Assembly (NCBI GenBank): GCA_000091165.1
Contig: FP565575.1
Location: 1,980,001-2,012,000 of the forward strand
DNA: 32,000 bases
DNA from: Candidatus Methylomirabilis oxygeniifera
Lineage (GTDB): Bacteria; Methylomirabilota; Methylomirabilia; Methylomirabilales; Methylomirabilaceae
Direction: 5' to 3'
The notes below the pieces were generated by a model. That model made no database searches. It saw only the letters and a list, made by a program, of their open reading frames with translations, and had not been told where the DNA came from. Numbering within the stretch: the first letter of the stretch is position 1; every line of letters begins with the position of its first letter. A program made the translations under genes and the position numbers. Shown here piece by piece: positions 13,696-26,353 of the stretch.

Positions 13696-14025
13696 TCAAA
13701 AGGAAAGTGGGAATCTGATGCGGCCATTGGCTACCTTTTCCCACTCAGGCAGGTAGGCGCTCATCAGGCTCTTAAAAAGCTTGCCATGGTTGTGCACGCG
13801 GAGGTGAAGGAGCTCGTGGACGATGACCACCCGCTGAAAGGCGCGATCCTCACTGAGGAGATCTTTACTGAGACAGATGCGTCCGCTGGGCGAGCACGAA
13901 GCCCATTTCTTCGTCATGGACTGGATCTGGACACGTAGAGGCCTCACGCCGATCTTTGAGGCCCATTGGTCTACCTGATTTTTCAGGATCCCGGCTTGGG
14001 TGAAACTCGATTGCTTGGGTCTCAT
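13696..14025 (-). CDS. Short M48/DUF45 (YgjP-like) zinc metallopeptidase domain protein
   Basis: 109 aa. KKWASCSPSGRICLSKDLL...VIVHELLHLRVHNHGKLF matches the WGSC...HExxHL..xNH core of the DUF45 proteins that commonly follow hsdR. Its ATG overlaps the hsdR stop (ATGA at 14022-14025). The ~90-aa N-terminal part seen in full-length family members is missing. Confidence 0.7.
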   Translation of the reverse strand: MRPKQSSFTQAGILKNQVDQWASKIGVRPLRVQIQSMTKKWASCSPSGRICLSKDLLSEDRAFQRVVIVHELLHLRVHNHGKLFKSLMSAYLPEWEKVANGRIRFPLSF

Positions 14026-16913
14026 GATCTACGCTGAAGCCGAAGGATTTGTTCGGCGAGTTCCACCATACGATCTCTTCCAACCACGGGCAGAAGCACC
14101 TTGTACAGCTCGGCCTTCAGGTGGCGGAGGTGAGCGGTGTTGTACCGGTAGTTCGGAAACCGTCCAACGGCAGCATCGATGAGGGGCGCGACCCTTTCGG
14201 GCTCCGAAGCTCCTGCTTGCTTGAGGACCCAATAGATCGTAAAGGTGTTGAGATCGAATCCCGTCTGCTCGCGTTCCCTGGTTGCCTGGGCATACTCCGC
14301 CAGCAACCTCTCAAGTTGCTTCAGCGCCTCCTGCGTGCTGATCTGTCGATCATCGTACGATTCCAGGACGGCCTCCGCCCGCTCACCGATTGGCACCAGG
14401 TAGGGTTGCTGTTCGCCTTTTTCATTTACGCCCTGGATGAGGCTCCTGCCAAGATTGATGACCTTCGCAGGCCCGGAGCCGTCGGCCTTCCTTAACGCCT
14501 CGAGAGTCTTTTCGTCGATCTTCACCAAAGGCATGGAGGTTGGAAGTGTATACGCCCGAGCCCACTCACGAACCAACGATTCGGTCTTCTTGGCAATCTC
14601 CTCATACAGAACAGGGCCTTGTCTGAAGGCGTTTCGGACGATCTGGTAGAGAACGGAAAGCTTCTTGTAGCTGTCGAGTTGGGGCCGCAAGAATGGGTCC
14701 GGGGAGATGATCTCGTAAAGGGCCTCAATCTCCCTGAAGAATGTGTAGAATCGTTCCCGCCGCTCCCTGTCGGCAAATGCGTCGATGGCCAGCTCGACGG
14801 CCTTGTCGTCAATAGGATCTTCGCAGAACGCGAGATACGGCTGTGCCTCTACGGCTATGAGCGCGGCGAAGCGCTCCTTGAGGACATCGAGGTTTTGGAT
14901 GACGCTGGCGACGGTGTCGGAATCGAAAGCCAGTGCCTTTTCGAGCTTCTCAAAAATTCCGACGAAATCCAGGACAAAGCCGCCCGGCTTCTTAACCCCG
15001 CCCTCATCCTGATATGGCCTGTTGACGCGGGCAATGGCCTGCAGCAGCGTGTGATCCCGCATCGGCTTGTCCAGGTACATGCAGTAGAGGATGGGAGCGT
15101 CGAAGCCGGTCAGGAGCTTTTCGGTTACGATGAGAATCTTCGGAAGTGAGTCCCGTTTGAGGAACGTCTTCCGAATCGCTTTTTCGTCGTCCTTGCTCAG
15201 TCGGTACTGAGCCAGGATATCATCGTCATCGAGAGCGGAAGAGTAGACGACGGTGGAGTAGTCAGGAGGCAGATACCGGTCCAGTGCCCTCTTGTACAGG
15301 GCGCACGCCTCCCGATCGACCCCCACGAGAAAGGCCTTGTAGCCGAGTGGCTCGACGTTCTCACGGAAATGGCGAGCGACATACTGAGCCACCTGCTCAA
15401 CGCGATCGGACGCCTTCAAAAATGCCTTGAGCCTTACGGCCTTATTGAGGATTCGGTTCAGCTCCTCGATATCGCTCACGCCCTCGGCTTCCACCAGGTC
15501 CAGGAACTCTCTTTCGAGCTGCTCCCGCGGCACTCTGATATCGTTTGGCGCCAGGGTGTAATGCAACTCCAGGGTCGTGCCGTCCTCGATCGACTCGGAG
15601 ATGGAATACTTGTCCAGATATCCCTGGGGATCATCCTTGCCAAAGACCTTGAAGGTCCCCTTGCCGTAGGCGATCTTATCGATGGGCGTCCCAGTGAAAC
15701 CGATCATCGTGGCATTCGGCAGGGCGGCGACCAAGTAGTTTCCGAGGTCTCCGCTCATGCTCCGGTGGGCCTCATCCACCAGGATGAAGACATTGTTTCG
15801 GGTACACAAGTCTGCGTCGGCCCGGTCGAATTTGTGAATCATCGAGACGATCAACCCCCGGTAGTCGGCGCGCAACAGCTCGCGCAGGTGCGCCTTGCTC
15901 CGGGCAAGCTCGGCCTTACCGTCACCGAAGACGCTTACGATCCAGCCGGCGAGTTGCCCTTCCAACTCGTTGCGATCGACCAGCATGATGACCGTAGGCT
16001 TCTCAAAGGCCGGATGGCGAAGGATCTGCTCCGCAGCCTTAATCATCGTGAAGGTCTTGCCAGAGCCTTGGGTGTGCCAGACCAGCCCCCGGGTCTTCTC
16101 CGGGTCGAGTACGCGGTCCACTACCTTTTCGACGACGCGAGTCTGGTGCTGGCGGAGGACGATCTTACGCAGCTCATCGTCCCGGGTATAGAAGATAATC
16201 CACTCACCCATGAGCTTGAGAAATCGCTCGCGGCTGAAGAAGCGCTTGACCTTCCTTTCGAAGTCGCCGCGCTCCTCATCCTTCCAGTTGAAGATATCCT
16301 TTCGGTCAAGATTCCAGGTGACGCCATAATAGAAGTCGATGAGATGGGTGACGTTAAAGAGTTGTGGCGCCGTCATCAGTTCGGGGGTCTCCCGGTGGTA
16401 GCGCCGGAGACGGACGATTGCCTCGTCGATACCGGCCGGTCTTCTCGCCCCTTTAGTCTCCACGAGCGCCAGGGGGATGCCGTTGATCACAAACATGACA
16501 TCGGCGCGATTCGTGTGCTGTCCGTTGGTGTATTGCCACTCCTCCGTCACGTGGAAGACATTGTGGGCTGGATGCTCAAAATCGATGAGGATTACGTTGC
16601 GCTGGCGCTTTTCATTCTGAACATACACCGACCGCTCACCCCGAAGCCACGCAAGCATTTCAGCATTGCCTTCGATGGTATTCCGGACGCTCTCGATGCT
16701 GGCGATGACCTGATCGACGTTGTCTATCGTCACGACACCGGGATTGAGGGCGATAAGCTTGTCTCGAAGGGTCGGATAGAGCAGCGTGCCGCTCTCCCCG
16801 CGCCTGAGTGTCAGGGCCTCATCGGGCGACAGATAACCCCACCCGATCTCTACGGCATAGCCGATCATCGGGTCCTGTACCGTAGAGCGTTCGGTTCCGA
16901 GATTAGGAGGCAT
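14022..16913 (-). CDS. hsdR: Type I restriction enzyme R subunit (SF2 helicase/translocase + nuclease)
   Basis: The track ORF starts at TTG 16928. ATG 16913 gives MPPNLGTER..., matching the start of the relic copy at 18790. It has the helicase motifs TQGSGKTFT (I) and ILVDEAHRS (II), with type I HsdR length and layout. Confidence 0.92.
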   Translation of the reverse strand: MPPNLGTERSTVQDPMIGYAVEIGWGYLSPDEALTLRRGESGTLLYPTLRDKLIALNPGVVTIDNVDQVIASIESVRNTIEGNAEMLAWLRGERSVYVQNEKRQRNVILIDFEHPAHNVFHVTEEWQYTNGQHTNRADVMFVINGIPLALVETKGARRPAGIDEAIVRLRRYHRETPELMTAPQLFNVTHLIDFYYGVTWNLDRKDIFNWKDEERGDFERKVKRFFSRERFLKLMGEWIIFYTRDDELRKIVLRQHQTRVVEKVVDRVLDPEKTRGLVWHTQGSGKTFTMIKAAEQILRHPAFEKPTVIMLVDRNELEGQLAGWIVSVFGDGKAELARSKAHLRELLRADYRGLIVSMIHKFDRADADLCTRNNVFILVDEAHRSMSGDLGNYLVAALPNATMIGFTGTPIDKIAYGKGTFKVFGKDDPQGYLDKYSISESIEDGTTLELHYTLAPNDIRVPREQLEREFLDLVEAEGVSDIEELNRILNKAVRLKAFLKASDRVEQVAQYVARHFRENVEPLGYKAFLVGVDREACALYKRALDRYLPPDYSTVVYSSALDDDDILAQYRLSKDDEKAIRKTFLKRDSLPKILIVTEKLLTGFDAPILYCMYLDKPMRDHTLLQAIARVNRPYQDEGGVKKPGGFVLDFVGIFEKLEKALAFDSDTVASVIQNLDVLKERFAALIAVEAQPYLAFCEDPIDDKAVELAIDAFADRERRERFYTFFREIEALYEIISPDPFLRPQLDSYKKLSVLYQIVRNAFRQGPVLYEEIAKKTESLVREWARAYTLPTSMPLVKIDEKTLEALRKADGSGPAKVINLGRSLIQGVNEKGEQQPYLVPIGERAEAVLESYDDRQISTQEALKQLERLLAEYAQATREREQTGFDLNTFTIYWVLKQAGASEPERVAPLIDAAVGRFPNYRYNTAHLRHLKAELYKVLLPVVGRDRMVELAEQILRLQRRS

Positions 16914-17027
16914 ACCATCTATTCCCAATTTCCGTCAGAATTGCTTGGGATTTGTTTTTTATCTACAATTCAGTAAGCAAATAAAGACAAGAGAAATCAT
17001 ATTGTTACAACCACGAATTGCTTTTTA

Positions 17028-18686
17028 TCACGTGTTACCTGTGTCTTTTGATGCAATTCCGGGATCTGCGCCTGGATACCAACGGCTAGCCTTGGTGTGA
17101 CCGACATTGTGAATTCGCCCCTCGGATTTAAGTTCTCTGAGTAATGTCTGGACTTGGGCTCTCGACAGTGCCGGCAGGACCTGCATCAACTCCCGGAGTT
17201 GGCTACCCTCTGTCTCATTTTCCTCAATGTGCCTCGCAAGTAGCGTCTTATTCGTTTCGCGATCAAGACCCCGTCTTCGAGTATAGGCGCCTTTCCTACC
17301 CATAAATTGGTGGAACCGCCTTGACAGAAGGTAGCGGGCTCCCTTGCCATGGCCTACGGTCTCAATGACGCCCCGATCCCTTAAGATGGCTAACCGATCT
17401 TTCAATACTGGGGCGATCCGTTGCTCCCTATGAACCAAGTCCAAAACAAGCAGATCTTCGAGTGTAAACGATGCCAAGGTTTCCTTGCCGATCTTCTCAA
17501 GAAATCGTAGAAACACAGGGTCTTGAACATCACCCCGGAGGGTAAGGAACACCTGGTAGTCATCGGTCCCCGAGAAATCAGGTCGAGGTTTGCTTTCCCT
17601 GATGCACTGCCTAAACATTCGGTCGGCTCCTTGACCTGCGCGCTCAACCAGCCCGCACCTGGCAAACACCTCTGCGATTCGGCGGTTCCGGGGAACTTGC
17701 TTTCTTAAGATGTTTTCGGGTGTAACACCAGGCGGGAAACCGCCAGGGCTGATGACCTCCAACTTTCGAGGCAACTGACGGACAAAGACTGACCCTGCTA
17801 GACGATAATCACGATGGCTGACCGCGTTGAGGATTGCCTCGCGAACTACCATCTCATTGAAAGTAGGGATATCCCACACATAAAGACCATCCTGAAAATG
17901 CTGGACTTCATTGCGAAGGTTGATCGTATCCCATAAATCGTCGTTAAAGAGAAAAAAGCCTTGTCGGTACTCTTTACGTTGCTGATAAGGAATTGAGGCC
18001 TCACTGGACCGATACTCGAAGATTACCTCTGACTGTGCCAAGTGCCTACCAATTGCTTGCCTGGTCCCAAGAAGGATCAAGGCGGCATAAGTAACGCTGC
18101 CGTTCACGATCAACTCCGCATCCTTCAAGAGCTGCTCACCTGAAAGTTGCGCAAGAGCCTCATTTCCGGATTTACGGCGCCACATCTCACGGAAGCGTTG
18201 GACAGCCAATGGATCGAGATCAGCAGGCATCGCAGGGGGGCAGAGTTCGGCCGAAAAATCTGGTCCGGCTTCATCGAAAATGCGTTTAAGTTGATCGGGT
18301 GTCATCGGCACCAACGCCTCGCCACCCCGCATCCAGTAGGCGCCCTTGTATTGGATCGGCATGCCAATTGGACGAGGCGGCACTGAAATCACAAGGACCC
18401 GACCATCTGGATGCAATACCTCGTCAATCTCAATGCGCAAATGCAGACGTTCGATAAGCCCCGACTTGGTGCGTTCCAGATGTTCGAACGCGCGACTGCC
18501 GACGATCCGTCTCGGTAGCTTGTTCGTAATACCGAGAACCATCCGGCCGCCGCCTTCGTTAGCCAGCGCGACGCAGTACCTGACCAACTCCTCAAATTCG
18601 TAACTGTTCTTCGCTTCCTTGAACTCAAGGTGCTCGTCTTCCTTGCTGTCCATCCACCTTCGGATCTCGTCTAGACTTACACTCAT
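17028..18686 (-). CDS. AlbA_2 (Schlafen-like) + HATPase_c_4 + C-terminal wHTH protein (family often mis-annotated as RecG-like or transcriptional regulator)
   Basis: Starts at ATG 18686 (MSVSLDEIRRWMDSKEDEHLEFKEAKNSYEFEELVRYCVALANEGGGRMVLGI), a typical AlbA_2 N-terminus. The central AILNAVSHRDY region is HATPase_c_4-like. The C-terminal LRELMQVLPALSRAQVQTLLRELKSEGRI is wHTH-like. Domain calls are from memory of the family consensus, not from a search. Confidence 0.7.
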   Translation of the reverse strand: MSVSLDEIRRWMDSKEDEHLEFKEAKNSYEFEELVRYCVALANEGGGRMVLGITNKLPRRIVGSRAFEHLERTKSGLIERLHLRIEIDEVLHPDGRVLVISVPPRPIGMPIQYKGAYWMRGGEALVPMTPDQLKRIFDEAGPDFSAELCPPAMPADLDPLAVQRFREMWRRKSGNEALAQLSGEQLLKDAELIVNGSVTYAALILLGTRQAIGRHLAQSEVIFEYRSSEASIPYQQRKEYRQGFFLFNDDLWDTINLRNEVQHFQDGLYVWDIPTFNEMVVREAILNAVSHRDYRLAGSVFVRQLPRKLEVISPGGFPPGVTPENILRKQVPRNRRIAEVFARCGLVERAGQGADRMFRQCIRESKPRPDFSGTDDYQVFLTLRGDVQDPVFLRFLEKIGKETLASFTLEDLLVLDLVHREQRIAPVLKDRLAILRDRGVIETVGHGKGARYLLSRRFHQFMGRKGAYTRRRGLDRETNKTLLARHIEENETEGSQLRELMQVLPALSRAQVQTLLRELKSEGRIHNVGHTKASRWYPGADPGIASKDTGNT

Positions 18687-18790
18687 GGCTGTATCGCTTC
18701 CGGTGAGAGATAGCCCCACCCGATCCCGACGGCGCACCCGACGAGGGGATCTTGAACGATTGGCCGTTCGGTTCCGAGATTAGGATGCAT
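18683..18790 (-). pseudogene. Relic 5' end of a second, diverged hsdR (35 codons), now a leader ORF overlapping the AlbA_2 start
   Basis: It translates to MHPNLGTERPIVQDPLVGCAVGIGWGYLSPEAIQP*, versus MPPNLGTERSTVQDPMIGYAVEIGWGYLSPDEAL for the real HsdR N-terminus. My hand alignment gives 68/90 nt and 23/30 aa identical. Its TGA overlaps the AlbA_2 ATG (ccATGAgt). Confidence 0.8.
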
Positions 18791-18810
18791 CACGGCGAAT
18801 TGACCAATCC

Positions 18811-19725
18811 TTAACCGCTGAATTCACTAGCGGCAAGATACGCCTCCCCTGTCTGCGACGCGTGTCTTCTCACACGCTCAACAACGTCCGCAAGGCCCAT
18901 GATTCCACCAAGGATCAGATACAGATGGTTGTGGTCAAACAGTAGAATCGGAGTTCTTTCTCCTGATGCTTCCTGTAGGGCGACTGACGAGTACCCGGAG
19001 ATCGAAACCATGATGCCCATCGTATTGTCCGCCTTTGAAGTAACCTTCTTGAAAAAGGTGTCGATATCGTTGGCGCCCGCTTGTTCGGTGGTGAATTTCA
19101 GCTCTACGAGGTAAGTGGTACCGGAAAGCGTCAGCGAGCCGTCGATCTGGCGACCTGCGTGGACATAGGGCTTACGATTAGGAATTTCGGAGAAATCGAC
19201 CAGGTCGTAGAACCAGTTCTGGAAATCATATCCTGCCTGTTGATCTCCGAGCCTCGTACCCAATTCGGTCAATCGGTCATTGAGTTTTTTGAGGGACTGT
19301 TGGGAGCGACTGACTTGCCCCTGACGTTTTCGAAATTCCTCCTTGGCTTTCTGTTTCTCTTCTTCCGATTGCAGTTCGTCCTCTTGCTGGGAGTGGTACA
19401 CGCGCAGGCGTGTGACGGCATCGTGCGCGGCCTTGATTTTCTGCGCCGAGTCTTCCCAATTCTGGAGATCCGGAAAAGTTTGTTGATCCATTAGGTGGGT
19501 GGCAATTCGCAAGAGCCCTGAGCGCCCTTGGTCGGTCTTCGGAAGCTCAGTAAAGACGCGATCAAGGAAGTCTCTCTTTGTCTCCTCAGACCCCCACGTC
19601 GCTATGAACGACTCGGAAATCCCACACTGGCGGAGAAACTTCGACAACGCTTTCTTCCTCCAGAATGACTTCAGGCAGGTGTCGTAAACCAAGCCAATGT
19701 AGTATGGTGTCAATCGAGACTTCAC
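18811..19725 (-). CDS. Unknown N-terminal domain + coiled coil + C-terminal PD-(D/E)xK (Mrr_cat-like) nuclease domain
   Basis: 304 aa with a GTG start (uncertain). A charged coiled segment (QQEDELQSEEEKQKAKEEFRKRQGQVSRSQQSLKKLNDRLTEL) precedes GYDFQNWFYDL...GRQIDGSL...YLVELKF. This supplies the D (19141-19143) and ExK (19096-19104) of a restriction-endonuclease fold. Confidence 0.65.
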   Translation of the reverse strand: MKSRLTPYYIGLVYDTCLKSFWRKKALSKFLRQCGISESFIATWGSEETKRDFLDRVFTELPKTDQGRSGLLRIATHLMDQQTFPDLQNWEDSAQKIKAAHDAVTRLRVYHSQQEDELQSEEEKQKAKEEFRKRQGQVSRSQQSLKKLNDRLTELGTRLGDQQAGYDFQNWFYDLVDFSEIPNRKPYVHAGRQIDGSLTLSGTTYLVELKFTTEQAGANDIDTFFKKVTSKADNTMGIMVSISGYSSVALQEASGERTPILLFDHNHLYLILGGIMGLADVVERVRRHASQTGEAYLAASEFSG

Positions 19726-19800
19726 TGTTTTTTGGCCAACGCCTCGGCGCCGATCGGCCAGCAGAGCTAGCCCGCTGAAGCGCCCTATTCTGCGTGCCCT

Positions 19801-21153
19801 CTATTTCTTCAGGACCGCCAGTATCTTCGCAGCTACAACTGCCACTCCCTCCGCAGACTGCGCTGCGACTCGATCAGCCAGGGTCGGCGAGTAAGCCAGG
19901 ACGCCGTCACGATCGGTCTCGTGCCACACAGGCAGCACAGCCTTCTCGCCCGACGCCGTCTCACGAGCGACGAGCCCGTCAAGCTCTTTCTGCGGCCACT
20001 GTTTCCGAAAGAAGTGAGGGCTTAGGATGACCACCCCATACCGGCATTTCGTGAGGCCTTCGTCGATCTTGCGGCGCAAGCTATCGCCCAGTTCCAGGAC
20101 CGCCTCGTCAAACCACACCCTCACGCCCTGAGCGTTGAGTTCCTGATACAGCGGTCGCGCGATCGCATCTTTGTCCTCGGACGCATGCGAAATGAAGACG
20201 TCGAATGGTTCGAGTTGCTGGTTCTGCGCCTGCCCCGCTTGACTGGGCTCTTGGATTCGCTTGTCGATCGATGTGAGGGCCTCGGCCTGCTGCTGTTTGA
20301 GGTCCGTGATTTGCCGATGAATCGCCATCTCGGAGGGTTGGGTTTGCGCCACCCTCGTGATAGCCTCAAGCGCGTGCTGCACGTCGGCCACCAGATCCTG
20401 AAACGCCTGGGAAGGCAGATCGAAACCCGGTGTCTGTTGAGCGAGTTGCAAAAGTTGCTGACCCAGTTCCTGGACCTGGATCGCCGATTCAGCAGTCGGC
20501 TTGGCTTGAAATTGTCGGAAAGCCGCCTCGAACTGCGCCCTTACCTGGTTTAGAGCCGTCAGCGGTCGGGTAGGAGCAAGAAGGTTGAAAACCGCTGTCT
20601 GTTGTTGCTTGACATTCTCCCGCACTTGTCCCCATTGCCGCGCTAGGTCCAGCTTTTTGTTCAACGCGCCGTGAATGTTGATGATCGATTGAGTCTCCCC
20701 TGTCTCCTGACTGCGTTGCGTGGCCAGTAGGGCGATGTCAATCTCTGACCAGATTTTAGCTAAGGTCCTTTCTCGCATAGCATCAAACGAGGGGAGGGCA
20801 TTGCCACGCAAGTTCTCACTAGCGAAACGATGTATCGTGATCAGGTCGTCACAGTCAGCGGCCAGTTGACTAGCAATCTCCTCTTTAAGCTGACGATTGA
20901 GCCCAACATCGATAGCTAACGATTGACCTGATACAATACGGCTCAGCACTTTCCAAGCCAGCAGTGCCCGGATGTCCAGTTCGCGCATGAGCGCCTGTCC
21001 GGTTTTCTCCTTTAATCCCCCCGACGTCCCAAGGCCCTGAAGAGCCAGCTCCTGCTGGATTTCTTGGACCTCTCGGCTAAATCTTTCCCGCCGTCCGTCA
21101 AATTCGATTCGGATTCGCGTTATAGCGAGTTCAAGTAGCTCAGGGTTTAACAT
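19801..21153 (-). CDS. Unknown helical/coiled-coil N-terminal region + C-terminal TIR domain protein
   Basis: The C-terminal ~135 aa read FDVFISHASEDKDAIARPLYQELNAQGVRVWFDEAVLELGDSL...VVILSPHFFRKQWPQKELDGL, a bacterial TIR_2-type domain. The conserved Glu lies in WPQKEL (codon 19984-19986). ATG 21153 overlaps the hsdS 3' end by 14 nt; the track start is TTG 21189. Confidence 0.8.
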   Translation of the reverse strand: MLNPELLELAITRIRIEFDGRRERFSREVQEIQQELALQGLGTSGGLKEKTGQALMRELDIRALLAWKVLSRIVSGQSLAIDVGLNRQLKEEIASQLAADCDDLITIHRFASENLRGNALPSFDAMRERTLAKIWSEIDIALLATQRSQETGETQSIINIHGALNKKLDLARQWGQVRENVKQQQTAVFNLLAPTRPLTALNQVRAQFEAAFRQFQAKPTAESAIQVQELGQQLLQLAQQTPGFDLPSQAFQDLVADVQHALEAITRVAQTQPSEMAIHRQITDLKQQQAEALTSIDKRIQEPSQAGQAQNQQLEPFDVFISHASEDKDAIARPLYQELNAQGVRVWFDEAVLELGDSLRRKIDEGLTKCRYGVVILSPHFFRKQWPQKELDGLVARETASGEKAVLPVWHETDRDGVLAYSPTLADRVAAQSAEGVAVVAAKILAVLKK

Positions 21154-22492
21154 TACCCTTTGCCTGTAGCACGGCTTCAATGGGCTCAATAGCGGTGCTC
21201 ACTCGAACTTGGCCGGTCATGAGCAGGTGGAGCATGGAAGAGAAAAGTGACTTAAGAGTATCGCGCCTTGCCCATGCCAACTCCAGCTTGTTATCCAGAC
21301 AGCGCAAGCTATGTGCGATCTCTTGCTGCTCTTCGATAGAGGGTCTGGGGGTCGACCATGGTTTGAGAAAGTTAATGTTGATATTCTTCTGCGTCCCCTT
21401 TGGAGCCAGATGGTTCATGTCCGCTTTCTGCGTGCGGAGATAGCATTCCAGGAAAGCGGCATCCATAGTTCCATCTGGAGTGATTCCAACTAGGCTGTCC
21501 GGAAAGGCGCTATCGAATTCCAGAATCGCCGTGTCAGCGATATTTGCCGCAATGGTGAGCACGATCGTTCCTTTCGGGAATAGTCGGCTGATCGCCAGAC
21601 CTTCTTCATTAAGTGTCTGCGAATAGGTCCGAATGCGCCCGTTCGATTTGGCAACGTCCCCAGTCTGAATAAATGGGATCGCCCCCCCATAGAATCGCGG
21701 CTCATTCCGAGGACGATGGGTAAACTTTCCACGCTCGATGCTCGCTAGTTCACAGAGTCTCATCACCTCCCAGCTCTCGGGGATCTCGCCGATTTCGGTT
21801 TGCTTGAGGGGTTCGCCTCGCAGGCCTTCACAAAAAAGCTTGGCCGTGGTTGCGGCCTTAAGTTCCTTGAGCGCGGCGACGAGCTTGTCTTGTACCTCTA
21901 CCGCCGCTTGAATCTTGGACAGCACCGCCGCAATAGCGTGCTGCTCAGCAAGAGGAGGAACAAGTATCTCCTGCCCTAGGATGTCACCATCGGTTACAGC
22001 CGGATAACTGGCGCCTCGCTGCAGGTTGCCGATACGCTCGATGAATTCGTCCGTCAAGAGGGTATAGTAGATAAATCGAGAATCCGCCTGCGTAGGATTA
22101 GCTCGGAGGACGCAAAAGGCAGTGGACACAATCTGACCGTCAAGGTACTCCGGAATCATAGCAATGCGCCTCAGCATTGGGCGCACGGTCGCAAAAATCA
22201 CGTCATTGGCCCCCACAAGTTTGCGTGCCCGACTAGGAGCTGTTGTTCCCAAGTGCTCCGTGGAACCTGTAATCTTCCACAGATCATTGGATACTGCCGA
22301 GACATCAATGTATTGAAACGATGTGGCGGGGCTCTTCGTTGGGTCGGTAAGCTCAGTTGCCAGACAGAGCGAGCGAAGAGGAACTGTTCTCCAGCCATCC
22401 GGTATTCCGGAACCGTTTTGGGCTGCCCGTTCCAAAGTCAAAAACTGAGACCTTTGACGAGAGCGTCGGTACGCCTTTGTGACAGTCCTCAT
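21140..22492 (-). CDS. hsdS: Type I restriction enzyme specificity subunit
   Basis: 450 aa with two target-recognition halves. They are separated by conserved helices (LVPPLAEQHAIAAVLSKIQAAVEVQDKL and RPSIEEQQEIAHSLRCLDNKLELAWARRDTLKSLFSSMLHLLMTGQVRV). An AAGAGGA RBS is present. Confidence 0.88.
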   Translation of the reverse strand: MRTVTKAYRRSRQRSQFLTLERAAQNGSGIPDGWRTVPLRSLCLATELTDPTKSPATSFQYIDVSAVSNDLWKITGSTEHLGTTAPSRARKLVGANDVIFATVRPMLRRIAMIPEYLDGQIVSTAFCVLRANPTQADSRFIYYTLLTDEFIERIGNLQRGASYPAVTDGDILGQEILVPPLAEQHAIAAVLSKIQAAVEVQDKLVAALKELKAATTAKLFCEGLRGEPLKQTEIGEIPESWEVMRLCELASIERGKFTHRPRNEPRFYGGAIPFIQTGDVAKSNGRIRTYSQTLNEEGLAISRLFPKGTIVLTIAANIADTAILEFDSAFPDSLVGITPDGTMDAAFLECYLRTQKADMNHLAPKGTQKNININFLKPWSTPRPSIEEQQEIAHSLRCLDNKLELAWARRDTLKSLFSSMLHLLMTGQVRVSTAIEPIEAVLQAKGNVKP

Positions 22493-22609
22493 TACTCATC
22501 CTCTTCCAGAGGGGAGGCAGAAGTTAATCCGCCGACGGGCCATGCGAAGTAGCCGCTCTATGACTGTCTGGATGATAACTACCTCATTTTTTGCAGAAAG
22601 AAGTTCAAT

Positions 22610-23493
22610 CTACGACCGCTCCATGGGAATCTTGAGAGGTGGTTGCCACCGTGACTTCTCAATCTCTTCCCTGAGCGCGACAGCGGTCGGCGTTGCTAAG
22701 TCTGGTTCGAATAGAGAGAGCGTGTGTCTAACAAAATCAACGATCTGAGCAAGGGTTTCTCGTATCGGGGTTCTATCGAACAAGCCTATATAGACTGAAA
22801 GCTCGAAGTTCACATCCACATGAGGATTGGGTCCAGCAACCCTAAGGGGGAAGCGCAACAACTCTGCACCAGGCTCCAGTGGGCGTCCCGGGATATGAGA
22901 TGTTCCAGATTCACCAACGACCTCGCAATCGCGCACAGTTTCCAGTCGAATTGTAGCCTTCCAATTGGAGGGCACCAGGGTCACGAACCTCAATACTCTG
23001 TGTTTGTCAGTGTTTGATAGATCATTAAGAGATAGCAGGGGGTGTACGCGTGGACCGTCCCATCCGCGATACGGCTGCAACTGTTCAATAATTGCGCAGT
23101 GCGAGGGGCTTACGTGGCTTACCATACGCTGGACGTTCCGGTCGTTCCAACCAGATGCATTTCGACATATGGGAAACTGAGTACGCTGCGGTCGCCCTCC
23201 TGAGTCCAGCGGCTCACGCATCGAGTGAAGGATCGAGAGATCCCACACGAGGTGATCGAGGGCACCCCGCAGATTGTGTATTATTTCGCCCGCTAACAGA
23301 CCCCAATGGGGGGACACTCTGGAACTGAGATGATAGTACACACCCATTCCTGGCGATCTTGGTCGAAATTTTGCGTGATATCTATCGGGTCTCTTTTTCC
23401 GGGAGTTACAAACGCTTCGACTTCCTGATCGAGTCGTTTAAGGTGTTGTTCGCCCCGATGGAATTTGAGCCAACAGCCTGGCATGGAAGTCAT
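22610..23493 (-). pseudogene. Frameshifted gene of unknown function with an Rx4H motif (possible HEPN-like), between hsdM and hsdS
   Basis: Two overlapping track ORFs (23293..23493 and 22610..23347) lie in different frames. They join cleanly if the C6 run (plus-strand G6 at 23308-23313) were C7, giving ...TIISVPECPPHWGLLAGEIIHNLRGALDHLVWDL... The sequence contains NLRGALDH (Rx4H) and NTDKHR. Confidence 0.6.
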
Positions 23494-23657
23494 GAGATAT
23501 CTTTACCCTCTTGGCAACAAGGATTGCTGGTGGGCAACCTCCCAACTCTCTGGGATGTCACCCAATGTGGTGGTCTTGAAAGGTTCGACGCGAGTCACTG
23601 CTAATCCTCGGCCGGAACCAGGGCGCGCCCGCTAGTCATTGCCAGAAGCCCGAGGAC

Positions 23658-23688
23658 TTTTCGAAATCACAATTTGTGATTTCGAAAA
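23658..23688. repeat. 31-bp perfect palindrome TTTTCGAAATCACAA-T-TTGTGATTTCGAAAA
   Basis: Read directly from the sequence. It lies in the 270-bp spacer between the hsdM stop and the frameshifted gene. Confidence 0.85.
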
Positions 23689-23764
23689 CTAAGGTTGCCA
23701 AAATGAAACCTCCATGTCCGTGGTGGTCGCAGATTGCGACCGCCTCAGCATAGTCATCATCTAG

Positions 23765-25675
23765 CTAAGCCCCGCATCGATATCCGAGTCCTATGAAGAT
23801 CTCCTTCAGCTCACTATCCAATTGCTTCACTTCCGCGTCCAGCTTCGAAAGGTCATCCAGGACTGTCTGGATGTCGCGATGCTCGGTCGGCGCGGTGGTT
23901 TCGATGTAGCGCGAAGGCGAGAGATTATAGTCGTTCTTGGCGATCTCCTCGATACTGGCGACCTTGACGAAGCGTTCAACGTCCTTGCCTGCATGGAACG
24001 CCTCAGCGATCTTCTTGACCGACGCATCGGGAATGAAGTTTTTCGGGCGGCCTTTCTCGAATTCGGTGCTGGCGTTGATCAGAATCACGCGGCCCTGTCG
24101 GCCTTTGGCTTTCTGTCGGTTGAGGAGGATGATGATCCCGGCTGCTGTGGTGTTGTAGAAAAGATTGTCCGGGAGGAGGATGACGCCCTCGATCGCGTCG
24201 CGGTCCACAAACCAGCGGCGGATGGTTTTTTCCTTATTTTCGCCTTGGCTTCCGCTGCCCCGGCTGGCGGCCCCCGTATCAATGACCACAGCCGCGCGGC
24301 CAGCGTCATTGAGCGAGGCGTGGACATGCTGGAGCCAGGCCCAGTCGGCGCTCGAGGCAGGGGCAAATCCGCCGCGCTCCACAAAGCGCTCGAATGGATC
24401 GTTTTCATACGATGCGGGGTCGAAATTGTCCTGGTTCCACATCGGATTGGTGACCACGATGTCGAAACGCCTGAGGCTCGATCCATCAAGAAACTTCGGG
24501 TTGGCCATCGAGTTGCCACGGACGATCTCCCCCTCCATGTCGTGCAGGACCATGTTCATCCGGGCGATGGCGAAGGAGGACCCTGTCAATTCCTGGCCGT
24601 ATAGCCTAAGGGGCCGGGCGATCTCTTCCTCCTGCCCTTTGAGCACAAGCTCACACTTGATGAGGAGTCCGCCGGACCCGCAGCATGGGTCGTTTACCTC
24701 CTCCCCCTGTTTCGGCCTCATGAGATAGGCGATGAGCCACCCGACCTCTTTGGGCGTGAAGAACTCGCCAGCGCTCTGCCCCTGGCCTTCTGCAAATTTG
24801 CGCAGCAGGTACTCGTAGGCGCGTCCGAGGAAGTCGGGTTCGACGTCGTGAAGCCCCATACGATAGCGCGGGTCGCTCAGTAACTCGATAAGGCGAGACA
24901 GCGCCCCATCGCTGATCTCTCGTTCGCCGTTGCGGATCTCGTTATAGTCGACGATGTCGATCACCCCCTGGAGGGAGGGGTTCAGTCGCGCAATGGCGCG
25001 GACGGTCGTCGTGAGCTGCTCGCCCAGCGTCTTGGGTCTTTTACCTTCAGGCCATTCGAACATCTGCCGGCTACTGACCACAGGCCACGTGGCCTGTGGT
25101 GGGATGTAAAAGCGAACGACGCCGTGGTCCGCTTCAAGCACTGTGCGGGCTCTCTCCTCGTTCCCTTCGTAGGTTTCGGTCAGTCCGGCCATTTCATCCT
25201 CGAAGACATCGGAGAGCCGCTTGATAAAAACCAGTGGCAAGATGTAATCCTTGAATTTCGGCGCGTCTTTCTCGCCCCGGATAGAGCAGGCCGCCTTCCA
25301 GAGAAGACCTTCCATAGATTTTGTATCGAGACTCGGACTGATTGATGCTTTCGGACGGCCGACGTCTGTTCCGCCGGCCCTCTTGCCGCGCTTCGTGCGC
25401 TTGCGAGGCGGAGGGACAGGGATGTCGATTCCCGGGAGGGTGGCGACTTGATCGCCGAAATACAGCTCGAGCAGATCGTTGTATGCCGGGCCGAGCCTCT
25501 GGAGGTACTGCTCGATGACATGAAGGGCCATAGCATCCGGTCTCGTCTTGCCCTTTTCCCACCGGTTGATGGTCGGAAGCGACACGCGGAGCTGCGCAGC
25601 CAGTTTCTCCTGACTAATGCCTAAACGCCGGCGCAGATCACTAATGAGCTTGGAAATATTAATGTCATACCTCAT
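23765..25675 (-). CDS. hsdM: Type I R-M N6-adenine DNA methyltransferase subunit with N-terminal XRE-type HTH fusion
   Basis: The N-terminus LISDLRRRLGISQEKLAAQLRVSLPTINRWEKGKTRPD is an HTH_3/XRE motif. A basic linker (PPPRKRTKRGKRAGG) follows, then an HsdM_N-like region. The AdoMet motif is DPCCGSGGLLI and motif IV reads TNPMWN. Start candidates are ATG 25675, ATG 25687, ATG 25699 and TTG 25711. Confidence 0.88.
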   Translation of the reverse strand: MRYDINISKLISDLRRRLGISQEKLAAQLRVSLPTINRWEKGKTRPDAMALHVIEQYLQRLGPAYNDLLELYFGDQVATLPGIDIPVPPPRKRTKRGKRAGGTDVGRPKASISPSLDTKSMEGLLWKAACSIRGEKDAPKFKDYILPLVFIKRLSDVFEDEMAGLTETYEGNEERARTVLEADHGVVRFYIPPQATWPVVSSRQMFEWPEGKRPKTLGEQLTTTVRAIARLNPSLQGVIDIVDYNEIRNGEREISDGALSRLIELLSDPRYRMGLHDVEPDFLGRAYEYLLRKFAEGQGQSAGEFFTPKEVGWLIAYLMRPKQGEEVNDPCCGSGGLLIKCELVLKGQEEEIARPLRLYGQELTGSSFAIARMNMVLHDMEGEIVRGNSMANPKFLDGSSLRRFDIVVTNPMWNQDNFDPASYENDPFERFVERGGFAPASSADWAWLQHVHASLNDAGRAAVVIDTGAASRGSGSQGENKEKTIRRWFVDRDAIEGVILLPDNLFYNTTAAGIIILLNRQKAKGRQGRVILINASTEFEKGRPKNFIPDASVKKIAEAFHAGKDVERFVKVASIEEIAKNDYNLSPSRYIETTAPTEHRDIQTVLDDLSKLDAEVKQLDSELKEIFIGLGYRCGA

Positions 25676-25680
25676 GGAGG

Positions 25681-25706
25681 TTATCATCTGACATCTCATA
25701 TGATAA
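25681..25706. promoter_or_regulatory. Inverted repeat TTATCAT-N12-ATGATAA (candidate operator) overlapping a possible hsdM promoter
   Basis: A perfect 7-bp inverted repeat lies immediately upstream of ATG 25675. The minus strand shows TTGACT (25706-25711), a 17-nt spacer, then GATGAT (25683-25688). That places a transcription start at or next to the ATG. Confidence 0.4.
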
Positions 25707-26048
25707 GTCAATAAGAAAATTCCCAGTCACACCAATGTGGGAACACAGCGAATCAACTCCAAATCTATTCTTCTTTTTGGCGTTGACCTTACGTGGGAAC
25801 GAACCCATGCGACCCGAAGGGTCAGCGCTCAGGATCTGGTAAGTTGTATGGGGAACGAAGGGAAAAAGGTGCTGGGGGCACAGTGCGGGGATGTGAGGTG
25901 AGGGTGGAGCGGCATTTGCGCTATGCGCGGAAACTCGGCTTCTTCCACCTGAGGACTCCTACGTGGATGGAGTTCGAAGCCCCTGTAGACGGAGTTTACA
26001 ACGTGGCTTCGCATGGCCACGCTTTGAATCGACTGAGGGTTCACTCCC

Positions 26049-26165
26049 CGCGGCTTGCCGCGAGTTCGTCATACCGGCGGAAGCCGGTATCCAAGGGTCA
26101 GACTGGATTCCGTGTCAAGCACGGAATGACGGGCCAGAACGGGGGGATACCTCGCGGCTTGCCGC
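26049..26165. repeat. Cluster of REP-like perfect hairpins
   Basis: The hairpins are CGCGGC-TT-GCCGCG (26049-26062), ATACCGGC-GGAA-GCCGGTAT (26071-26090) and ATTCCGTG-TCAAG-CACGGAAT (26107-26127). A second CGCGGCTTGCCGC occurs at 26153-26165. Confidence 0.7.
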
Positions 26166-26264
26166 AAGGTAGTTCATTACCTCTCAGAACACACGATTAG
26201 TGCACCGTTAAGCTATTGTCGCTCAGCGATCCTCCAGGATTAATCGGAGTGAATAATTGTCCAC

Positions 26265-26342
26265 GTAGGTCGGGATGGTTCGCAGGACCGACCTACTCGA
26301 CTCGTTTGATTCGTCTGGTTACGCTGCGCTAACCCGACCTAC
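26265..26342. repeat. Two REP-like hairpins sharing a GTAGGTCGG/CCGACCTAC module, downstream of csp
   Basis: GTAGGTCGG (26265-26273) pairs with CCGACCTAC (26288-26296). GTCTGGTTA (26313-26321) pairs with TAACCCGAC (26330-26338) with one mismatch, followed by CCGACCTAC again (26334-26342). They could act as a csp terminator or stabiliser. Confidence 0.6.
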
Positions 26343-26353
26343 GCAACTGATGA

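What the first reader, a model, noticed from the sequence alone, without database searches (positions are those of the whole stretch)
13696..25711. Type I R-M operon expanded to nine ORFs (seven intact genes, a frameshifted gene and an hsdR relic): a compact defence island with no mobility gene
A canonical type I locus has three genes. Here a single-strand, tightly packed array reads:
- HTH-hsdM
- a frameshifted Rx4H-motif gene
- hsdS
- the TIR protein
- the PD-(D/E)xK nuclease
- the hsdR relic
- the AlbA_2/HATPase_c_4 protein
- hsdR
- a short M48 peptidase

Several junctions are overlapping start/stop pairs: hsdS/TIR, relic/AlbA_2 and hsdR/M48. The block is inserted between lysA and a csp-uvrB unit. 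Spot counts on single 60-nt lines gave about 53% G+C at 17041-17100 and about 68% at 10201-10260, which suggests foreign origin. I see no integrase, transposase or tRNA at either edge. The left edge abuts the lysA RBS, and the right edge is a REP-like hairpin field.
Basis: partly seen in the sequence, partly recalled or inferred. Interest (0 to 1): 0.7.

Follow-up and report, generated by a model that had tools for sequence, protein, structure and literature searches.

The report
Type I restriction operon with swappable defence cargo
This is a 12-kb type I restriction-modification operon in the methane oxidiser Candidatus Methylomirabilis oxyfera that carries extra anti-phage genes between its own genes, a known kind of defence island whose recombination scars show how that cargo is exchanged.

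Summary
On the minus strand of 13696-25711 lie:
- HTH-hsdM
- a gene of an unnamed family with one frameshift
- hsdS
- a TIR protein of the AbTir/PdTIR type
- a 304-aa Mrr-like PD-(D/E)xK protein
- a 36-codon relic of the hsdR 5' end
- a Schlafen-type AlbA_2/HATPase_c_4 protein
- hsdR
- a short YgjP/M48 peptidase

I add a short hsdS-like relic at 23503-23598. The organism is Ca. Methylomirabilis oxyfera. A relative about 91% identical has uvrB-csp-lysA with only about 180 bp where the window has 12.6 kb. Two other relatives carry the same scaffold at the same site with different cargo. One of them is flanked by a 153-nt direct repeat.

The hsdR relic is a true recombination scar. In a sister locus, cargo plus relic match an intact cargo-hsdR junction at 95% identity.

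Genes embedded in type I systems are already described (PrrC, the EPEC RRDM island, "guilt-by-embedding"). This is therefore a new member of a known kind. The repeat-bounded cargo slots are the informative extra. All functions are inferred from sequence.

The parts
23765..25675 (-). hsdM with an N-terminal XRE-type HTH domain. The ORF runs up to a TTG at 25711.
   Evidence: HTH_3 2.7e-11, HsdM_N 8.2e-21, N6_Mtase 8.7e-92. MTase_I 5.7e-162. The motifs DPCCGSGG and NPMW are visible. Gene callers give 636 or 640 aa.
25684..25711 (-). Promoter-like site (TTGACT-17-GATGAT) overlapped by an 11-nt imperfect inverted repeat, TTATCATATGA-GATG-TCAGATGATAA, directly before the hsdM start. It is a candidate operator for the HTH domain.
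   Evidence: The 60%-identical HTH-hsdM in L152 is preceded by a perfect 10-nt inverted repeat, ATGTTATATA-N10-TATATAACAT. A role as an operator is inferred.
25883..26035 (.). Single remaining copy of the roughly 153-nt repeat that flanks the island on both sides in sister genome L187 (att-like).
   Evidence: L187 1847-1999 and 12779-12931, 86% identical, spacing 10,932; window 25895-26017 matches both L187 copies; alignment with the empty site.
23658..23688 (.). Perfect 15+15-nt palindrome between the hsdM stop and the hsdS-like relic. Its function is unknown.
   Evidence: I8. It is unique in the window.
23503..23598 (-). hsdS-like relic of 31 codons (..TTLGDIPESWEV..), placed where hsdS would start after hsdM.
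   Evidence: 68% identity over 19 aa to the motif that precedes TRD2 in this hsdS, E 1.8e-6. The same motif occurs in L099 and L152. It is short, so the support is moderate.
22610..23493 (-). Gene of an unnamed family, broken by one -1 frameshift in a C6 run at 23308-23313.
   Evidence: end-to-end alignment with intact P0241, E 1e-93. No Pfam, NCBIfam, PADLOC or PHROG hit. The same frameshift is present in four independent assemblies.
21140..22492 (-). hsdS with two target-recognition domains.
   Evidence: Methylase_S 2.9e-27, two stretches. Specificity_I 7.8e-57. TRD1 is shared with L187 and TRD2 with L183.
19801..21153 (-). TIR protein. About 300 N-terminal residues are poorly conserved. The C-terminal TIR domain is of the AbTir/PdTIR/TcpB NADase family.
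   Evidence: PDC-S66 2e-60. E about 1e-39 to 3H16 and 8G83, with the WPQKELDGL glutamate conserved; more than 3000 homologues share only the TIR domain.
18811..19725 (-). 304-aa Mrr-like PD-(D/E)xK protein from a very conserved, widespread family.
   Evidence: Mrr_cat 1.4e-4; 2504 homologues, 72-91% identical, full length; invariant D195, E208 and K210; found alone in varied contexts.
18683..18793 (-). hsdR 5'-end relic: a 36-codon mini-ORF whose TGA stop overlaps the ATG of the next gene.
   Evidence: One search shows the origin of such relics in sister locus L178: cargo plus relic match the intact cargo-hsdR junction of L183 at 95.2% over 1267 nt.
17028..18686 (-). Prokaryotic Schlafen-type protein with SLFN_AlbA_2 and HATPase_c_4 domains.
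   Evidence: 3LMM, 1.4e-18. E16-x4-E21-x-K23 is visible and matches the catalytic Ex4(E/D)xK motif of PMC13056530.
14022..16913 (-). hsdR.
   Evidence: HSDR_N, SWI2_SNF2, ResIII and T1R_D3-like. TIGR00348 462 bits. GSGKT, DEAH and D-x12-ETK are visible.
13696..14025 (-). Short YgjP-like/M48 metallopeptidase containing HELLH. Its 3' end was truncated by a junction deletion.
   Evidence: 86 bits, profile positions 115-200 of 207. Short forms of 118-119 aa follow hsdR in L152, L187 and L188. One search shows the C-terminus replaced here.
13713..13723 (.). Island/chromosome junction on the lysA side, formed by a deletion at a TCAGAT microhomology.

Best explanation
The locus is a chromosomal type I restriction-modification operon of Ca. 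Methylomirabilis oxyfera that serves as a scaffold for other defence genes.

**Inferred from domains and motifs**
- HsdM and HsdS methylate a bipartite target.
- Together with HsdR they translocate along and cut unmodified incoming DNA.

**Inferred, weaker**
- The HTH domain fused to HsdM probably represses the operon's own promoter through an inverted repeat that overlaps it.

**Cargo, co-oriented and tightly packed so probably co-transcribed (co-transcription is inferred)**
- A TIR NADase of the AbTir type.
- A Mrr-like nuclease.
- A Schlafen-type nuclease with an intact catalytic motif.
- A gene of an unnamed family, now inactivated by a frameshift.

By analogy with characterised relatives, these cargo genes would act as second-line, abortive-infection effectors. 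They would deplete NAD, cut DNA or cut tRNA when a phage escapes or blocks restriction.

**Shown by comparison of sequences**
- The scaffold sits between csp and lysA in at least three lineages.
- It is absent from one close relative.
- Its cargo differs in every copy examined.
- Cargo boundaries coincide with duplicated ends of hsd genes.

**Inferred from those scars**
- Cassettes move between related type I loci by recombination that duplicates 44-153 nt of the target, without an integrase in the island.
For: **Domains and motifs:**

**Organism and identical contigs:**

**Empty site:** L007 has uvrB-csp-lysA with about 180 bp in place of window 13724-26350.

**Same scaffold at the same site with other cargo**
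- L099: hsdR-M48 95.8% nt, AlbA_2 78%, and a 1267-aa ORF in the slot.
- L187: cargo ORFs of 180, 194 and 180 aa.
- L100, L178 and L179 carry further cargo sets next to the same relic.

**Relic origin:** L178 1-1266 matches L183 8825-10091 at 95.2%. That stretch covers the SDH protease gene plus the first 91 nt of an intact hsdR.

**More duplication scars**
- Three relics in tandem in L179 and two in L100.
- A 153-nt direct repeat around the L187 island.
- A 44-nt hsdM 3'-end repeat around an MNT/HepT pair in L186.

**Composition:** GC3 is host-like for hsdM, hsdR and M48 and lower for the cargo.

**Operon structure:** there is no excess of terminators inside, and the only promoter-like site lies before hsdM.

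**Published parallels**
- The RptR-HsdM-HsdS-DarTG-HsdR-M48 island gives phage protection (PMC12255303).
- Embedded genes in type I R-M are common and co-oriented in 96.7% of cases (10.1101/2024.01.29.577857).
- Bacterial Schlafens are phage-triggered tRNases (PMC13056530).
Against: - No activity of any component was or could be tested.
- Co-transcription is unproven. Gaps of 75-166 nt could hold promoters of a type the scan does not cover.
- One cargo gene is frameshifted, and the YgjP gene is 3'-truncated, so parts of the island are decaying.
- The TIR and Mrr-like families mostly occur outside R-M loci. Embedding is therefore not needed for their function, and no coupling to the R-M enzyme is shown.
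- Relics were found only in this hsdR lineage. They were absent from six other AlbA_2-containing type I loci.
- The recombination mechanism is not identified.
- The direction of the presence/absence difference with L007 (gain or loss) is unresolved.
Confidence: 0.8

Rival explanations
1. The type I scaffold is ancestral to this Methylomirabilis clade and was not recently acquired. The 'empty' relative lost it by recombination between the two flanking 153-nt repeats. Only the cargo is recent.
For: - hsdM, hsdR and M48 have host-like GC3 of 0.68-0.73.
- Window against L187: scaffold 83-88% nt and flanks 82-87% nt, which is equal divergence.
- L007 keeps exactly one copy of the repeat, as expected after excision.
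Against: - Against L099 the scaffold (95.8%) is more similar than the flanks (91-93%), which suggests later transfer.
- The same hsdR family sits at unrelated sites in other genomes (L183-L186).
- It occurs at 72-78% identity in other phyla, so it does move.
- L008, L010 and L011 have other content upstream of lysA.
Confidence: 0.45
2. The embedded proteins are functionally coupled to the restriction enzyme. They would be held silent by it and released when a phage anti-restriction protein disables it, as PrrC is by EcoprrI. They would then be guards rather than independent systems.
For: - They are embedded between hsdS and hsdR on the same strand with overlapping or short junctions.
- AlbA_2-type proteins recur between hsdS and hsdR in several type I families (L107, L109, L111, L152, L172).
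- The PrrC precedent rests on established knowledge and is also named.
Against: - TIR and Mrr-like homologues are mostly found without any R-M genes.
- The cargo differs in each sister island while the R-M proteins stay 87-97% identical. That argues against specific protein-protein coupling.
Confidence: 0.2
3. The extra genes are not defence genes. The AlbA_2/HATPase_c_4 protein would be a DNA-binding regulator, the TIR protein a Tcp-like effector against eukaryotes, and the others selfish or decaying passengers.
For: - The TIR domain is closest to TcpB, PdTIR and AbTir, first described as virulence-type proteins.
- The AlbA_2 protein ends in a region typical of winged-helix regulators. This rests on knowledge of COG2865 and was not tested here.
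- One cargo gene is already a pseudogene.
Against: - M. oxyfera is a free-living methanotroph.
- The catalytic motifs are intact.
- The PADLOC candidate model PDC-S66 was built from embedded genes.
- Sister islands carry recognised defence or toxin modules in the same slots: HEPN/MNT, HicAB, AbiU2 and an SDH protease.
Confidence: 0.1
4. The relics and repeats are assembly artefacts or chance similarities.
For: - Most sister loci are metagenome contigs.
- The hsdS-like relic is only about 20 aa of similarity.
- The open reading frame of the hsdR relic is not clearly more than chance: P is about 0.04, and a non-coding frame is equally open.
Against: - The window sequence is identical in four independent assemblies, including an NCBI genome.
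- The hsdR relic is present at the same junction in six diverged islands from different samples.
- L178 and L183 show 1267 nt of collinearity.
Confidence: 0.03

Closest known systems
RRDM island of enteropathogenic E. coli (RptR-HsdM-HsdS-DarT-DarG-HsdR-M48; PMC12255303)
   Same: - It is a type I R-M operon with a regulator at the 5' end.
- Defence cargo lies between hsdS and hsdR.
- An M48-family metallopeptidase gene follows hsdR.
- Everything is on one strand.
- The hsdS-hsdR gap was proposed there as a recombination hotspot.
   Different: - Here the HTH regulator is fused to HsdM instead of being a separate 79-aa protein.
- The cargo is TIR + Mrr-like + Schlafen instead of DarTG.
- There is a second cargo slot between hsdM and hsdS.
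- The slots are marked by duplicated hsd gene ends.
- No IS elements flank the island.
- Nothing here has been tested experimentally.
Genes embedded in type I R-M, BREX, DISARM and Hma systems ('guilt-by-embedding', Payne et al. 2024, 10.1101/2024.01.29.577857), including the PADLOC candidate PDC-S66
   Same: - Extra co-oriented genes are nested inside a multi-gene defence system.
- The TIR protein matches PDC-S66 at 2e-60.
   Different: - The text passages I searched in that paper did not mention duplicated hsd gene ends at cargo boundaries.
- The Mrr-like protein and the frameshifted gene match no PADLOC model, apart from a 1e-4 hit to PDC-S02.
prr locus of E. coli CT196 (hsdM-hsdS-prrC-hsdR; PrrC anticodon nuclease). 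This rests on established knowledge.
   Same: A latent nuclease gene is embedded in a type I R-M operon. The Schlafen-type protein here is, like PrrC, a predicted tRNA-cutting enzyme.
   Different: - There is no sequence relation to PrrC.
- Coupling to the R-M enzyme is not shown.
- There are several cargo genes instead of one.
AbTir / PdTIR / TcpB bacterial TIR NADases (PDB 8G83, 3H16, 4LQC)
   Same: The TIR domain matches at E about 1e-39, with most aligned positions identical. The glutamate-containing motif is conserved.
   Different: - The roughly 300-aa N-terminal part is almost unique. Only three hits cover it.
- There is no ThsA-type partner, so this is not a Thoeris system.
Prokaryotic Schlafen nucleases (PMC13056530)
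   Same: The SLFN_AlbA_2 domain carries an intact Ex4ExK motif at residues 16-23.
   Different: It is fused to HATPase_c_4 and a C-terminal region, not to the Ig-like sensor of the studied RorSlfn5. Its trigger is unknown.
Cis-mobilisable elements and genomic islands bounded by att repeats. This rests on established knowledge.
   Same: A sister island is bounded by 153-nt direct repeats of the target sequence. The empty site holds a single copy.
   Different: - There is no integrase in or next to the island.
- The repeats are only 86% identical.
- The window itself has lost one copy.

Membership tests
Type I restriction-modification system | HsdM with an N6-adenine methyltransferase domain and SAM/catalytic motifs | tested here: met
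   N6_Mtase 8.7e-92 and HsdM_N 8.2e-21. DPCCGSGG and NPMW are in the translation. The TIGR00497 score of 209 is below its equivalog cut-off of 243, so this is a divergent subfamily.
Type I restriction-modification system | HsdS with two target-recognition domains | tested here: met
   Methylase_S with two stretches. Specificity_I 7.8e-57 over residues 31-433.
Type I restriction-modification system | HsdR with an N-terminal PD-(D/E)xK nuclease and an SF2 translocase | tested here: met
   TIGR00348 462 bits against a cut-off of 284.55. HSDR_N, SWI2_SNF2, ResIII and T1R_D3-like.
Type I restriction-modification system | Sequence-specific methylation and ATP-dependent restriction | not testable with these tools
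   This needs methylome data or enzyme assays.
Defence genes embedded in a type I R-M operon (RRDM-like, guilt-by-embedding) | Extra genes between hsd genes on the same strand | tested here: met
   One slot lies between hsdM and hsdS and one between hsdS and hsdR.
Defence genes embedded in a type I R-M operon (RRDM-like, guilt-by-embedding) | Cargo varies between related scaffolds | tested here: met
   Window, L099, L100, L178, L179, L187 and L183-186 carry different cargo, while hsdR is 87-97% identical.
Defence genes embedded in a type I R-M operon (RRDM-like, guilt-by-embedding) | Protection against phage | not testable with these tools
   No culture or assay is available.
Bacterial TIR NADase (AbTir/PdTIR/TcpB; PADLOC PDC-S66) | TIR domain above family thresholds with a conserved catalytic glutamate | tested here: met
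   TIR_2 79 bits against 28. PDC-S66 2e-60. The alignment to 3H16 and 8G83 has WPQKELDGL conserved. That this glutamate is the catalytic one rests on published work on AbTir and is recalled, not tested.
Thoeris | A ThsB-type TIR protein together with a ThsA effector (SIR2/SLOG or Macro) | tested here: not met
   There are only ThsB-type hits for the TIR protein. No island protein hits ThsA models.
Prokaryotic Schlafen nuclease | SLFN_AlbA_2 domain with an Ex4(E/D)xK motif | tested here: met
   SLFN_AlbA_2 45.6 bits against 25.3. The motif definition comes from PMC13056530.
HEPN (frameshifted gene) | Match to a HEPN profile | tested here: not met
   No Pfam, NCBIfam, PADLOC or PHROG hit for the window protein or for eight intact homologues. 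No PDB sequence hit for the family profile.
HEPN (frameshifted gene) | All-alpha HEPN fold | tested here: not met
HEPN (frameshifted gene) | Conserved Rx4-6H motif | tested here: inconclusive
   R76-GALD-H81 is present. R76 and D80 are at least 90% conserved, but H81 is below 90%. The invariant residues are Q140, P141, K164 and H165.
Mrr-like PD-(D/E)xK nuclease | Mrr_cat profile match and a D...ExK triad | tested here: met
   Mrr_cat 22.4 bits against a cut-off of 21. D195, E208 and K210 are invariant in 30 homologues. The fold is not confirmed: C-terminal pLDDT is below 50, and only weak hits to Cdn1, MspJI and Can2 were found.
YgjP-like / M48 metallopeptidase | YgjP-like profile match with HExxH | tested here: met
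   86 bits against 26. HELLH is present. Only profile positions 115-200 of 207 are covered. The short form is shared with L152, L187 and L188.
Integrase-borne genomic island | Integrase or recombinase gene, and insertion at a tRNA or tmRNA gene | tested here: not met
   No tRNA. No recombinase domain in any island ORF. The flanks are lysA/dapF and csp/uvrB.
Integrase-borne genomic island | Flanking direct repeats of the target | tested here: inconclusive
   L187 has a 153-nt repeat at 86% identity. The window has one copy only, and no flanking repeat of 14 nt or more.

The most novel reading that the evidence does not exclude
In this family of type I R-M islands, cargo is gained and exchanged by an integrase-free route. 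The conserved ends of the hsd genes (hsdR 5', hsdM 3', hsdS 3') and a 153-nt chromosomal sequence would act as homology anchors. Cassettes would enter, for example, as circles by single crossover, or by homology-facilitated illegitimate recombination. Each event would duplicate 44-153 nt of the target and restore the interrupted hsd gene. The result would be chains of relic-cargo-relic-cargo. The type I operon would then behave as a self-repairing, integron-like collector of defence genes.
Probability: 0.35. Interest if true: 0.65.

Novelty: new member of a known kind. Interest (0 to 1): 0.45.

Why it matters
**What is ordinary.** Defence genes nested in type I R-M operons are already used to discover new systems, so the island itself is not surprising.

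**What this locus adds.** It gives a clean natural series. The series has an empty site, three occupied copies at the same chromosomal position, and further copies elsewhere. All share a scaffold that is 87-97% identical, and each has different cargo. The recombination scars are still readable. This makes the open question of how embedded cargo gets in and out directly testable, and it suggests that no dedicated recombinase is needed.

**Candidate defence genes for testing.** It also flags two large, unnamed protein families:
- a 304-aa Mrr-like protein that is 72-91% identical across phyla;
- a family of about 7,200 clusters with a confident fold that has no solved relative.

**A side note.** It records a TIR NADase and a Schlafen-type nuclease in an NC10 methanotroph.

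Tried and rejected
- **TIR plus Mrr-like as a two-gene system: rejected.** Homologues of each occur without the other. In L179 the Mrr-like gene is present without TIR, and the homology to the window covers exactly the ORF.
- **Thoeris: rejected.** There is no ThsA.
- **HEPN for the frameshifted gene: not supported**.
- **Selection keeping the relic mini-ORF open, for translational coupling to the Schlafen gene: not demonstrated.**
  - All six distinct copies are open, and all keep the ATGA overlap.
  - One copy has an in-frame 9-nt deletion.
  - A crude model gives P about 0.04, but another non-coding frame is equally free of stops.
  - Substitutions by codon position are 20/19/29.
- **Relics as a general feature of AlbA_2-containing type I loci: rejected.** None was found in L106, L107, L109, L111, L114 or L152.
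- **An hsdM 3' relic before hsdS in the window: rejected.** There is only a 13-nt match.
- **The 153-nt repeat as an RNA gene or riboswitch: no support.** Rfam gives nothing and the fold z-score is -1.0.
- **Flanking repeats around the L183 and L186 islands: none found**.
- **Fold searches.**
  - The structure of the Mrr-like protein was too poor in its C-terminal half for a fold assignment.
- **Plasmid search with the unnamed family.** It gave only hypothetical proteins.
- **Literature search.** It found no description of hsdR relics at cargo boundaries. The library is incomplete, so this is not proof of absence.

Full report
**What is there**

All long ORFs between 13.7 and 25.7 kb lie on the minus strand. 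Profile searches identify them as follows, in the order of transcription:
- hsdM with an N-terminal XRE-type HTH domain, 23765-25675.
- A gene of an unnamed family in two overlapping frames, 23293-23493 and 22610-23347.
- hsdS, 21140-22492.
- A TIR protein, 19801-21153. It matches PADLOC candidate PDC-S66 at 2e-60.
- A 304-aa protein with a marginal Mrr_cat match, 18811-19725.
- A 36-codon ORF that copies the start of hsdR, 18683-18793.
- A SLFN_AlbA_2/HATPase_c_4 protein, 17028-18686.
- hsdR, 14022-16913. TIGR00348 scores 462 bits.
- A 109-aa YgjP-like (M48-type) peptidase, 13696-14025.

The relic is 76% identical to the hsdR 5' end over 92 nt.

The frameshift is one missing base in a C6 run at 23308-23313. 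With it repaired, the 294-aa protein aligns from end to end with an intact homologue, E 1e-93. The same frameshift is present in four independent assemblies.

It is a 31-codon hsdS-like fragment at 23503-23598, just after hsdM.

There is no tRNA, no Rfam family and no recombinase.

**Where it comes from**

The exact YgjP protein occurs on contigs of Candidatus Methylomirabilis oxyfera that are identical to the window.

I scanned species-representative genomes with LysA.
- A relative whose flanks are about 90-95% identical (L007) has uvrB-csp-lysA-dapF contiguous. About 180 bp there correspond to window 13724-26350.
- Other relatives have other content upstream of lysA. L008 has chemotaxis-type genes. 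L010 has a glycosyltransferase cluster preceded by a duplicated lysA 5' fragment.

**Composition**

The island is 55.2% G+C. The flanks are 58.8% and 60.2%. The dip is not uniform.
- hsdM, hsdR and the YgjP gene have GC3 of 0.68-0.73, like the neighbouring housekeeping genes at 0.68-0.78.
- hsdS and the cargo genes have GC3 of 0.49-0.63.

**Sister islands**

Searches with the AlbA_2 protein and with HsdR and context look-ups gave a series of related loci.

Two of them sit at the same csp-lysA site.
- L099: hsdR-YgjP 95.8% nt, AlbA_2 78% nt, other hsdS TRDs. A single 1267-aa ORF that matches a phage protein family fills the slot.
- L187: scaffold 83-88% nt, about the same as its flanks at 82-87%. 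It has three small unknown ORFs as cargo.

L100, L178 and L179 are shorter contigs with the same relic-AlbA_2-hsdR arrangement and yet other cargo:
- an MNT/HEPN pair and a 262-aa protein;
- an SDH-type protease;
- AbiU2, toxin-antitoxin pairs and the Mrr-like gene.

L183-L186 carry the same hsdM, hsdR and YgjP (72-91% aa) at unrelated chromosomal sites. They have no AlbA_2 gene. HsdR proteins 72-78% identical occur in several other phyla.

The scaffold is thus a widespread, mobile type I family, and its cargo differs in every copy.

**The scars**

All hsdR relics begin at codon 1 of hsdR and end between codons 22 and 50. L179 has three in a row, each after a cargo module. L100 has two.

The origin of one relic can be read directly. 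L178 positions 1-1266 match L183 8825-10091 at 95.2%. That stretch is the SDH protease gene, the spacer and the first 91 nt of an intact hsdR. The match ends where the AlbA_2 gene begins. The relic is therefore the old hsdR start. The AlbA_2 cassette sits inside hsdR and is followed by a second, complete hsdR start.

The same pattern appears at two other levels.
- A 44-nt repeat of the hsdM 3' end brackets an MNT/HepT pair in L186.
- A 153-nt direct repeat, 86% identical, brackets the whole island in L187.

The empty site in L007 has one copy of that 153-nt sequence. The window keeps only the copy next to hsdM, at about 25883-26035. The other copy and the last 14 codons of the YgjP gene were removed by a deletion at a TCAGAT microhomology, with the junction at 13713-23.

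Relics were not found in six AlbA_2-containing type I loci of other families. The phenomenon is so far specific to this lineage.

I could not show that the relic mini-ORF is kept open by selection.

**What the parts probably do**

The R-M genes have all the expected motifs.

The HTH domain fused to HsdM, an 11-nt inverted repeat over the only promoter-like site, and a comparable repeat before the 60%-identical gene in L152 suggest autoregulation. This would parallel the separate RptR repressor of the E. coli RRDM island.

The TIR domain is close to PdTIR, AbTir and TcpB, with E about 1e-39 and most aligned positions identical. The glutamate motif is conserved. Its N-terminal 300 residues are nearly unique. 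There is no ThsA partner.

The AlbA_2 protein carries E16-x4-E21-x-K23. This is the catalytic motif of bacterial Schlafen tRNases that are triggered by phage proteins.

The Mrr-like protein has an invariant D-ExK triad. It belongs to a family of more than 2500 clusters that are 72-91% identical at full length, in Acidobacteria, Zixibacteria and others. It is found alone in varied contexts.

The frameshifted gene belongs to a family of about 7,200 clusters at 50% identity. The family has no Pfam model. Its predicted fold is confident (pLDDT 94) and has no solved relative, but it has two phage homologues. It cannot be filed as HEPN.

All functional statements are inferences from homology.

**Comparison with what is known**

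Genes nested in type I R-M operons have been known since PrrC. They were surveyed systematically by Payne et al.. The EPEC island RptR-HsdM-HsdS-DarTG-HsdR-M48 has the same layout and protects against phage. Its authors already called the hsdS-hsdR gap a likely recombination hotspot.

The present locus is a new member of that kind. It has new cargo and a fused regulator.

What I did not find described is the bracketing of cargo by duplicated hsd gene ends and of the island by a long target repeat (the library is incomplete). That is the basis of the novel reading, which I hold at about one in three.

**Verdict**

The qualifications are that the scaffold is probably old in this clade, that the cargo is the recently exchanged part, and that the 'Rx4H' gene is not demonstrably HEPN.
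- Interest is moderate. The system type is ordinary, but the natural series of variants is unusually informative.

Noticed in passing
window 18811-19725; L094-L098, L179-L182: The 304-aa Mrr-like protein belongs to a family of more than 2500 clusters. Members keep the same length and 72-91% identity across distant phyla. The gene sits alone in very different neighbourhoods. Between the window and L179 the nucleotide homology (91%) starts and stops exactly at the ORF ends. No library names the family.
   Followed up: partly
window 22610-23493: The frameshifted gene belongs to a family of about 7,200 clusters at 50% identity with no Pfam model. Its predicted fold is confident (pLDDT 94), mixed alpha/beta, and has no PDB match by Foldseek. 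Two unnamed phage proteins share the fold (E 9e-13 and 5e-6).
   Followed up: partly
window 23658-23688: A perfect 15+15-nt A+T-rich palindrome, TTTTCGAAATCACAA-T-TTGTGATTTCGAAAA, lies between the hsdM stop and the hsdS-like relic. It is unique in the window and its role is unknown.
   Followed up: partly
window 25684-25711; L152 1505-1535: Inverted repeats lie directly before two HTH-hsdM genes that are 60% identical, with a different sequence in each. In the window the repeat overlaps the promoter-like hexamers. The -10 element ends only a few bases before the ATG at 25675, so the mRNA may be leaderless.
   Followed up: partly
L010 3905-4174 and 10001-11254: In a Methylomirabilis MAG with LysA 85% identical, a copy of lysA codons 7-96 (82% aa) lies 6 kb upstream of the intact lysA. 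A glycosyltransferase/phosphodiesterase cluster lies between the two. This is another insertion bracketed by a duplicated gene start at the same chromosomal region.
   Followed up: no
L186 5085-5128 and 5921-5964: A 44-nt repeat of the hsdM 3' end (84% identical) brackets an MNT/HepT toxin-antitoxin pair. In L183-L186 the MNT domain is called as a fusion with HsdS or HsdM.
   Followed up: partly
L099 1967-5770: The cargo of the sister island is one 1267-aa ORF with no Pfam domain. It matches PHROG family phrog_18693 over its whole length (E 1e-141) and matches PD-Lambda-4_A weakly.
   Followed up: no
window 21140-22492 vs L187 and L183: The hsdS gene is a mosaic. Its first half (TRD1) is 87.5% identical to L187 and its second half is unrelated to L187. 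Its second half is about 75% nt identical to L183. This indicates TRD shuffling and different specificities in sister islands.
   Followed up: partly
L007 (DATMXF010000086.1): This record is titled 'Patescibacteria group bacterium'. It is collinear with the M. oxyfera window at 90-95% nucleotide identity over 14 kb, so the bin label is probably wrong.
   Followed up: no
L091-L093: A TIR homologue (68% identical in the TIR domain) in a Nitrospirales genome lies next to a Macro-NAPRTase fusion and an isochorismatase-type (nicotinamidase-like) gene. That places it beside NAD salvage genes.
   Followed up: no
window 26049-26166 and 26265-26345: Several short G+C-rich hairpins lie between csp and the repeat copy. 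About 70 nt of them (GTAGGTCGG...CCGACCTAC and neighbours) are absent from the otherwise alignable spacer of L007. No other copies occur in the window, so REP status is untested.
   Followed up: partly
L008 2951-6683: In another Methylomirabilis MAG the csp-lysA gap holds a PAS histidine kinase, a CheR-PAS protein and CheB on the opposite strand. This shows that the gap is a general variable spot.
   Followed up: no
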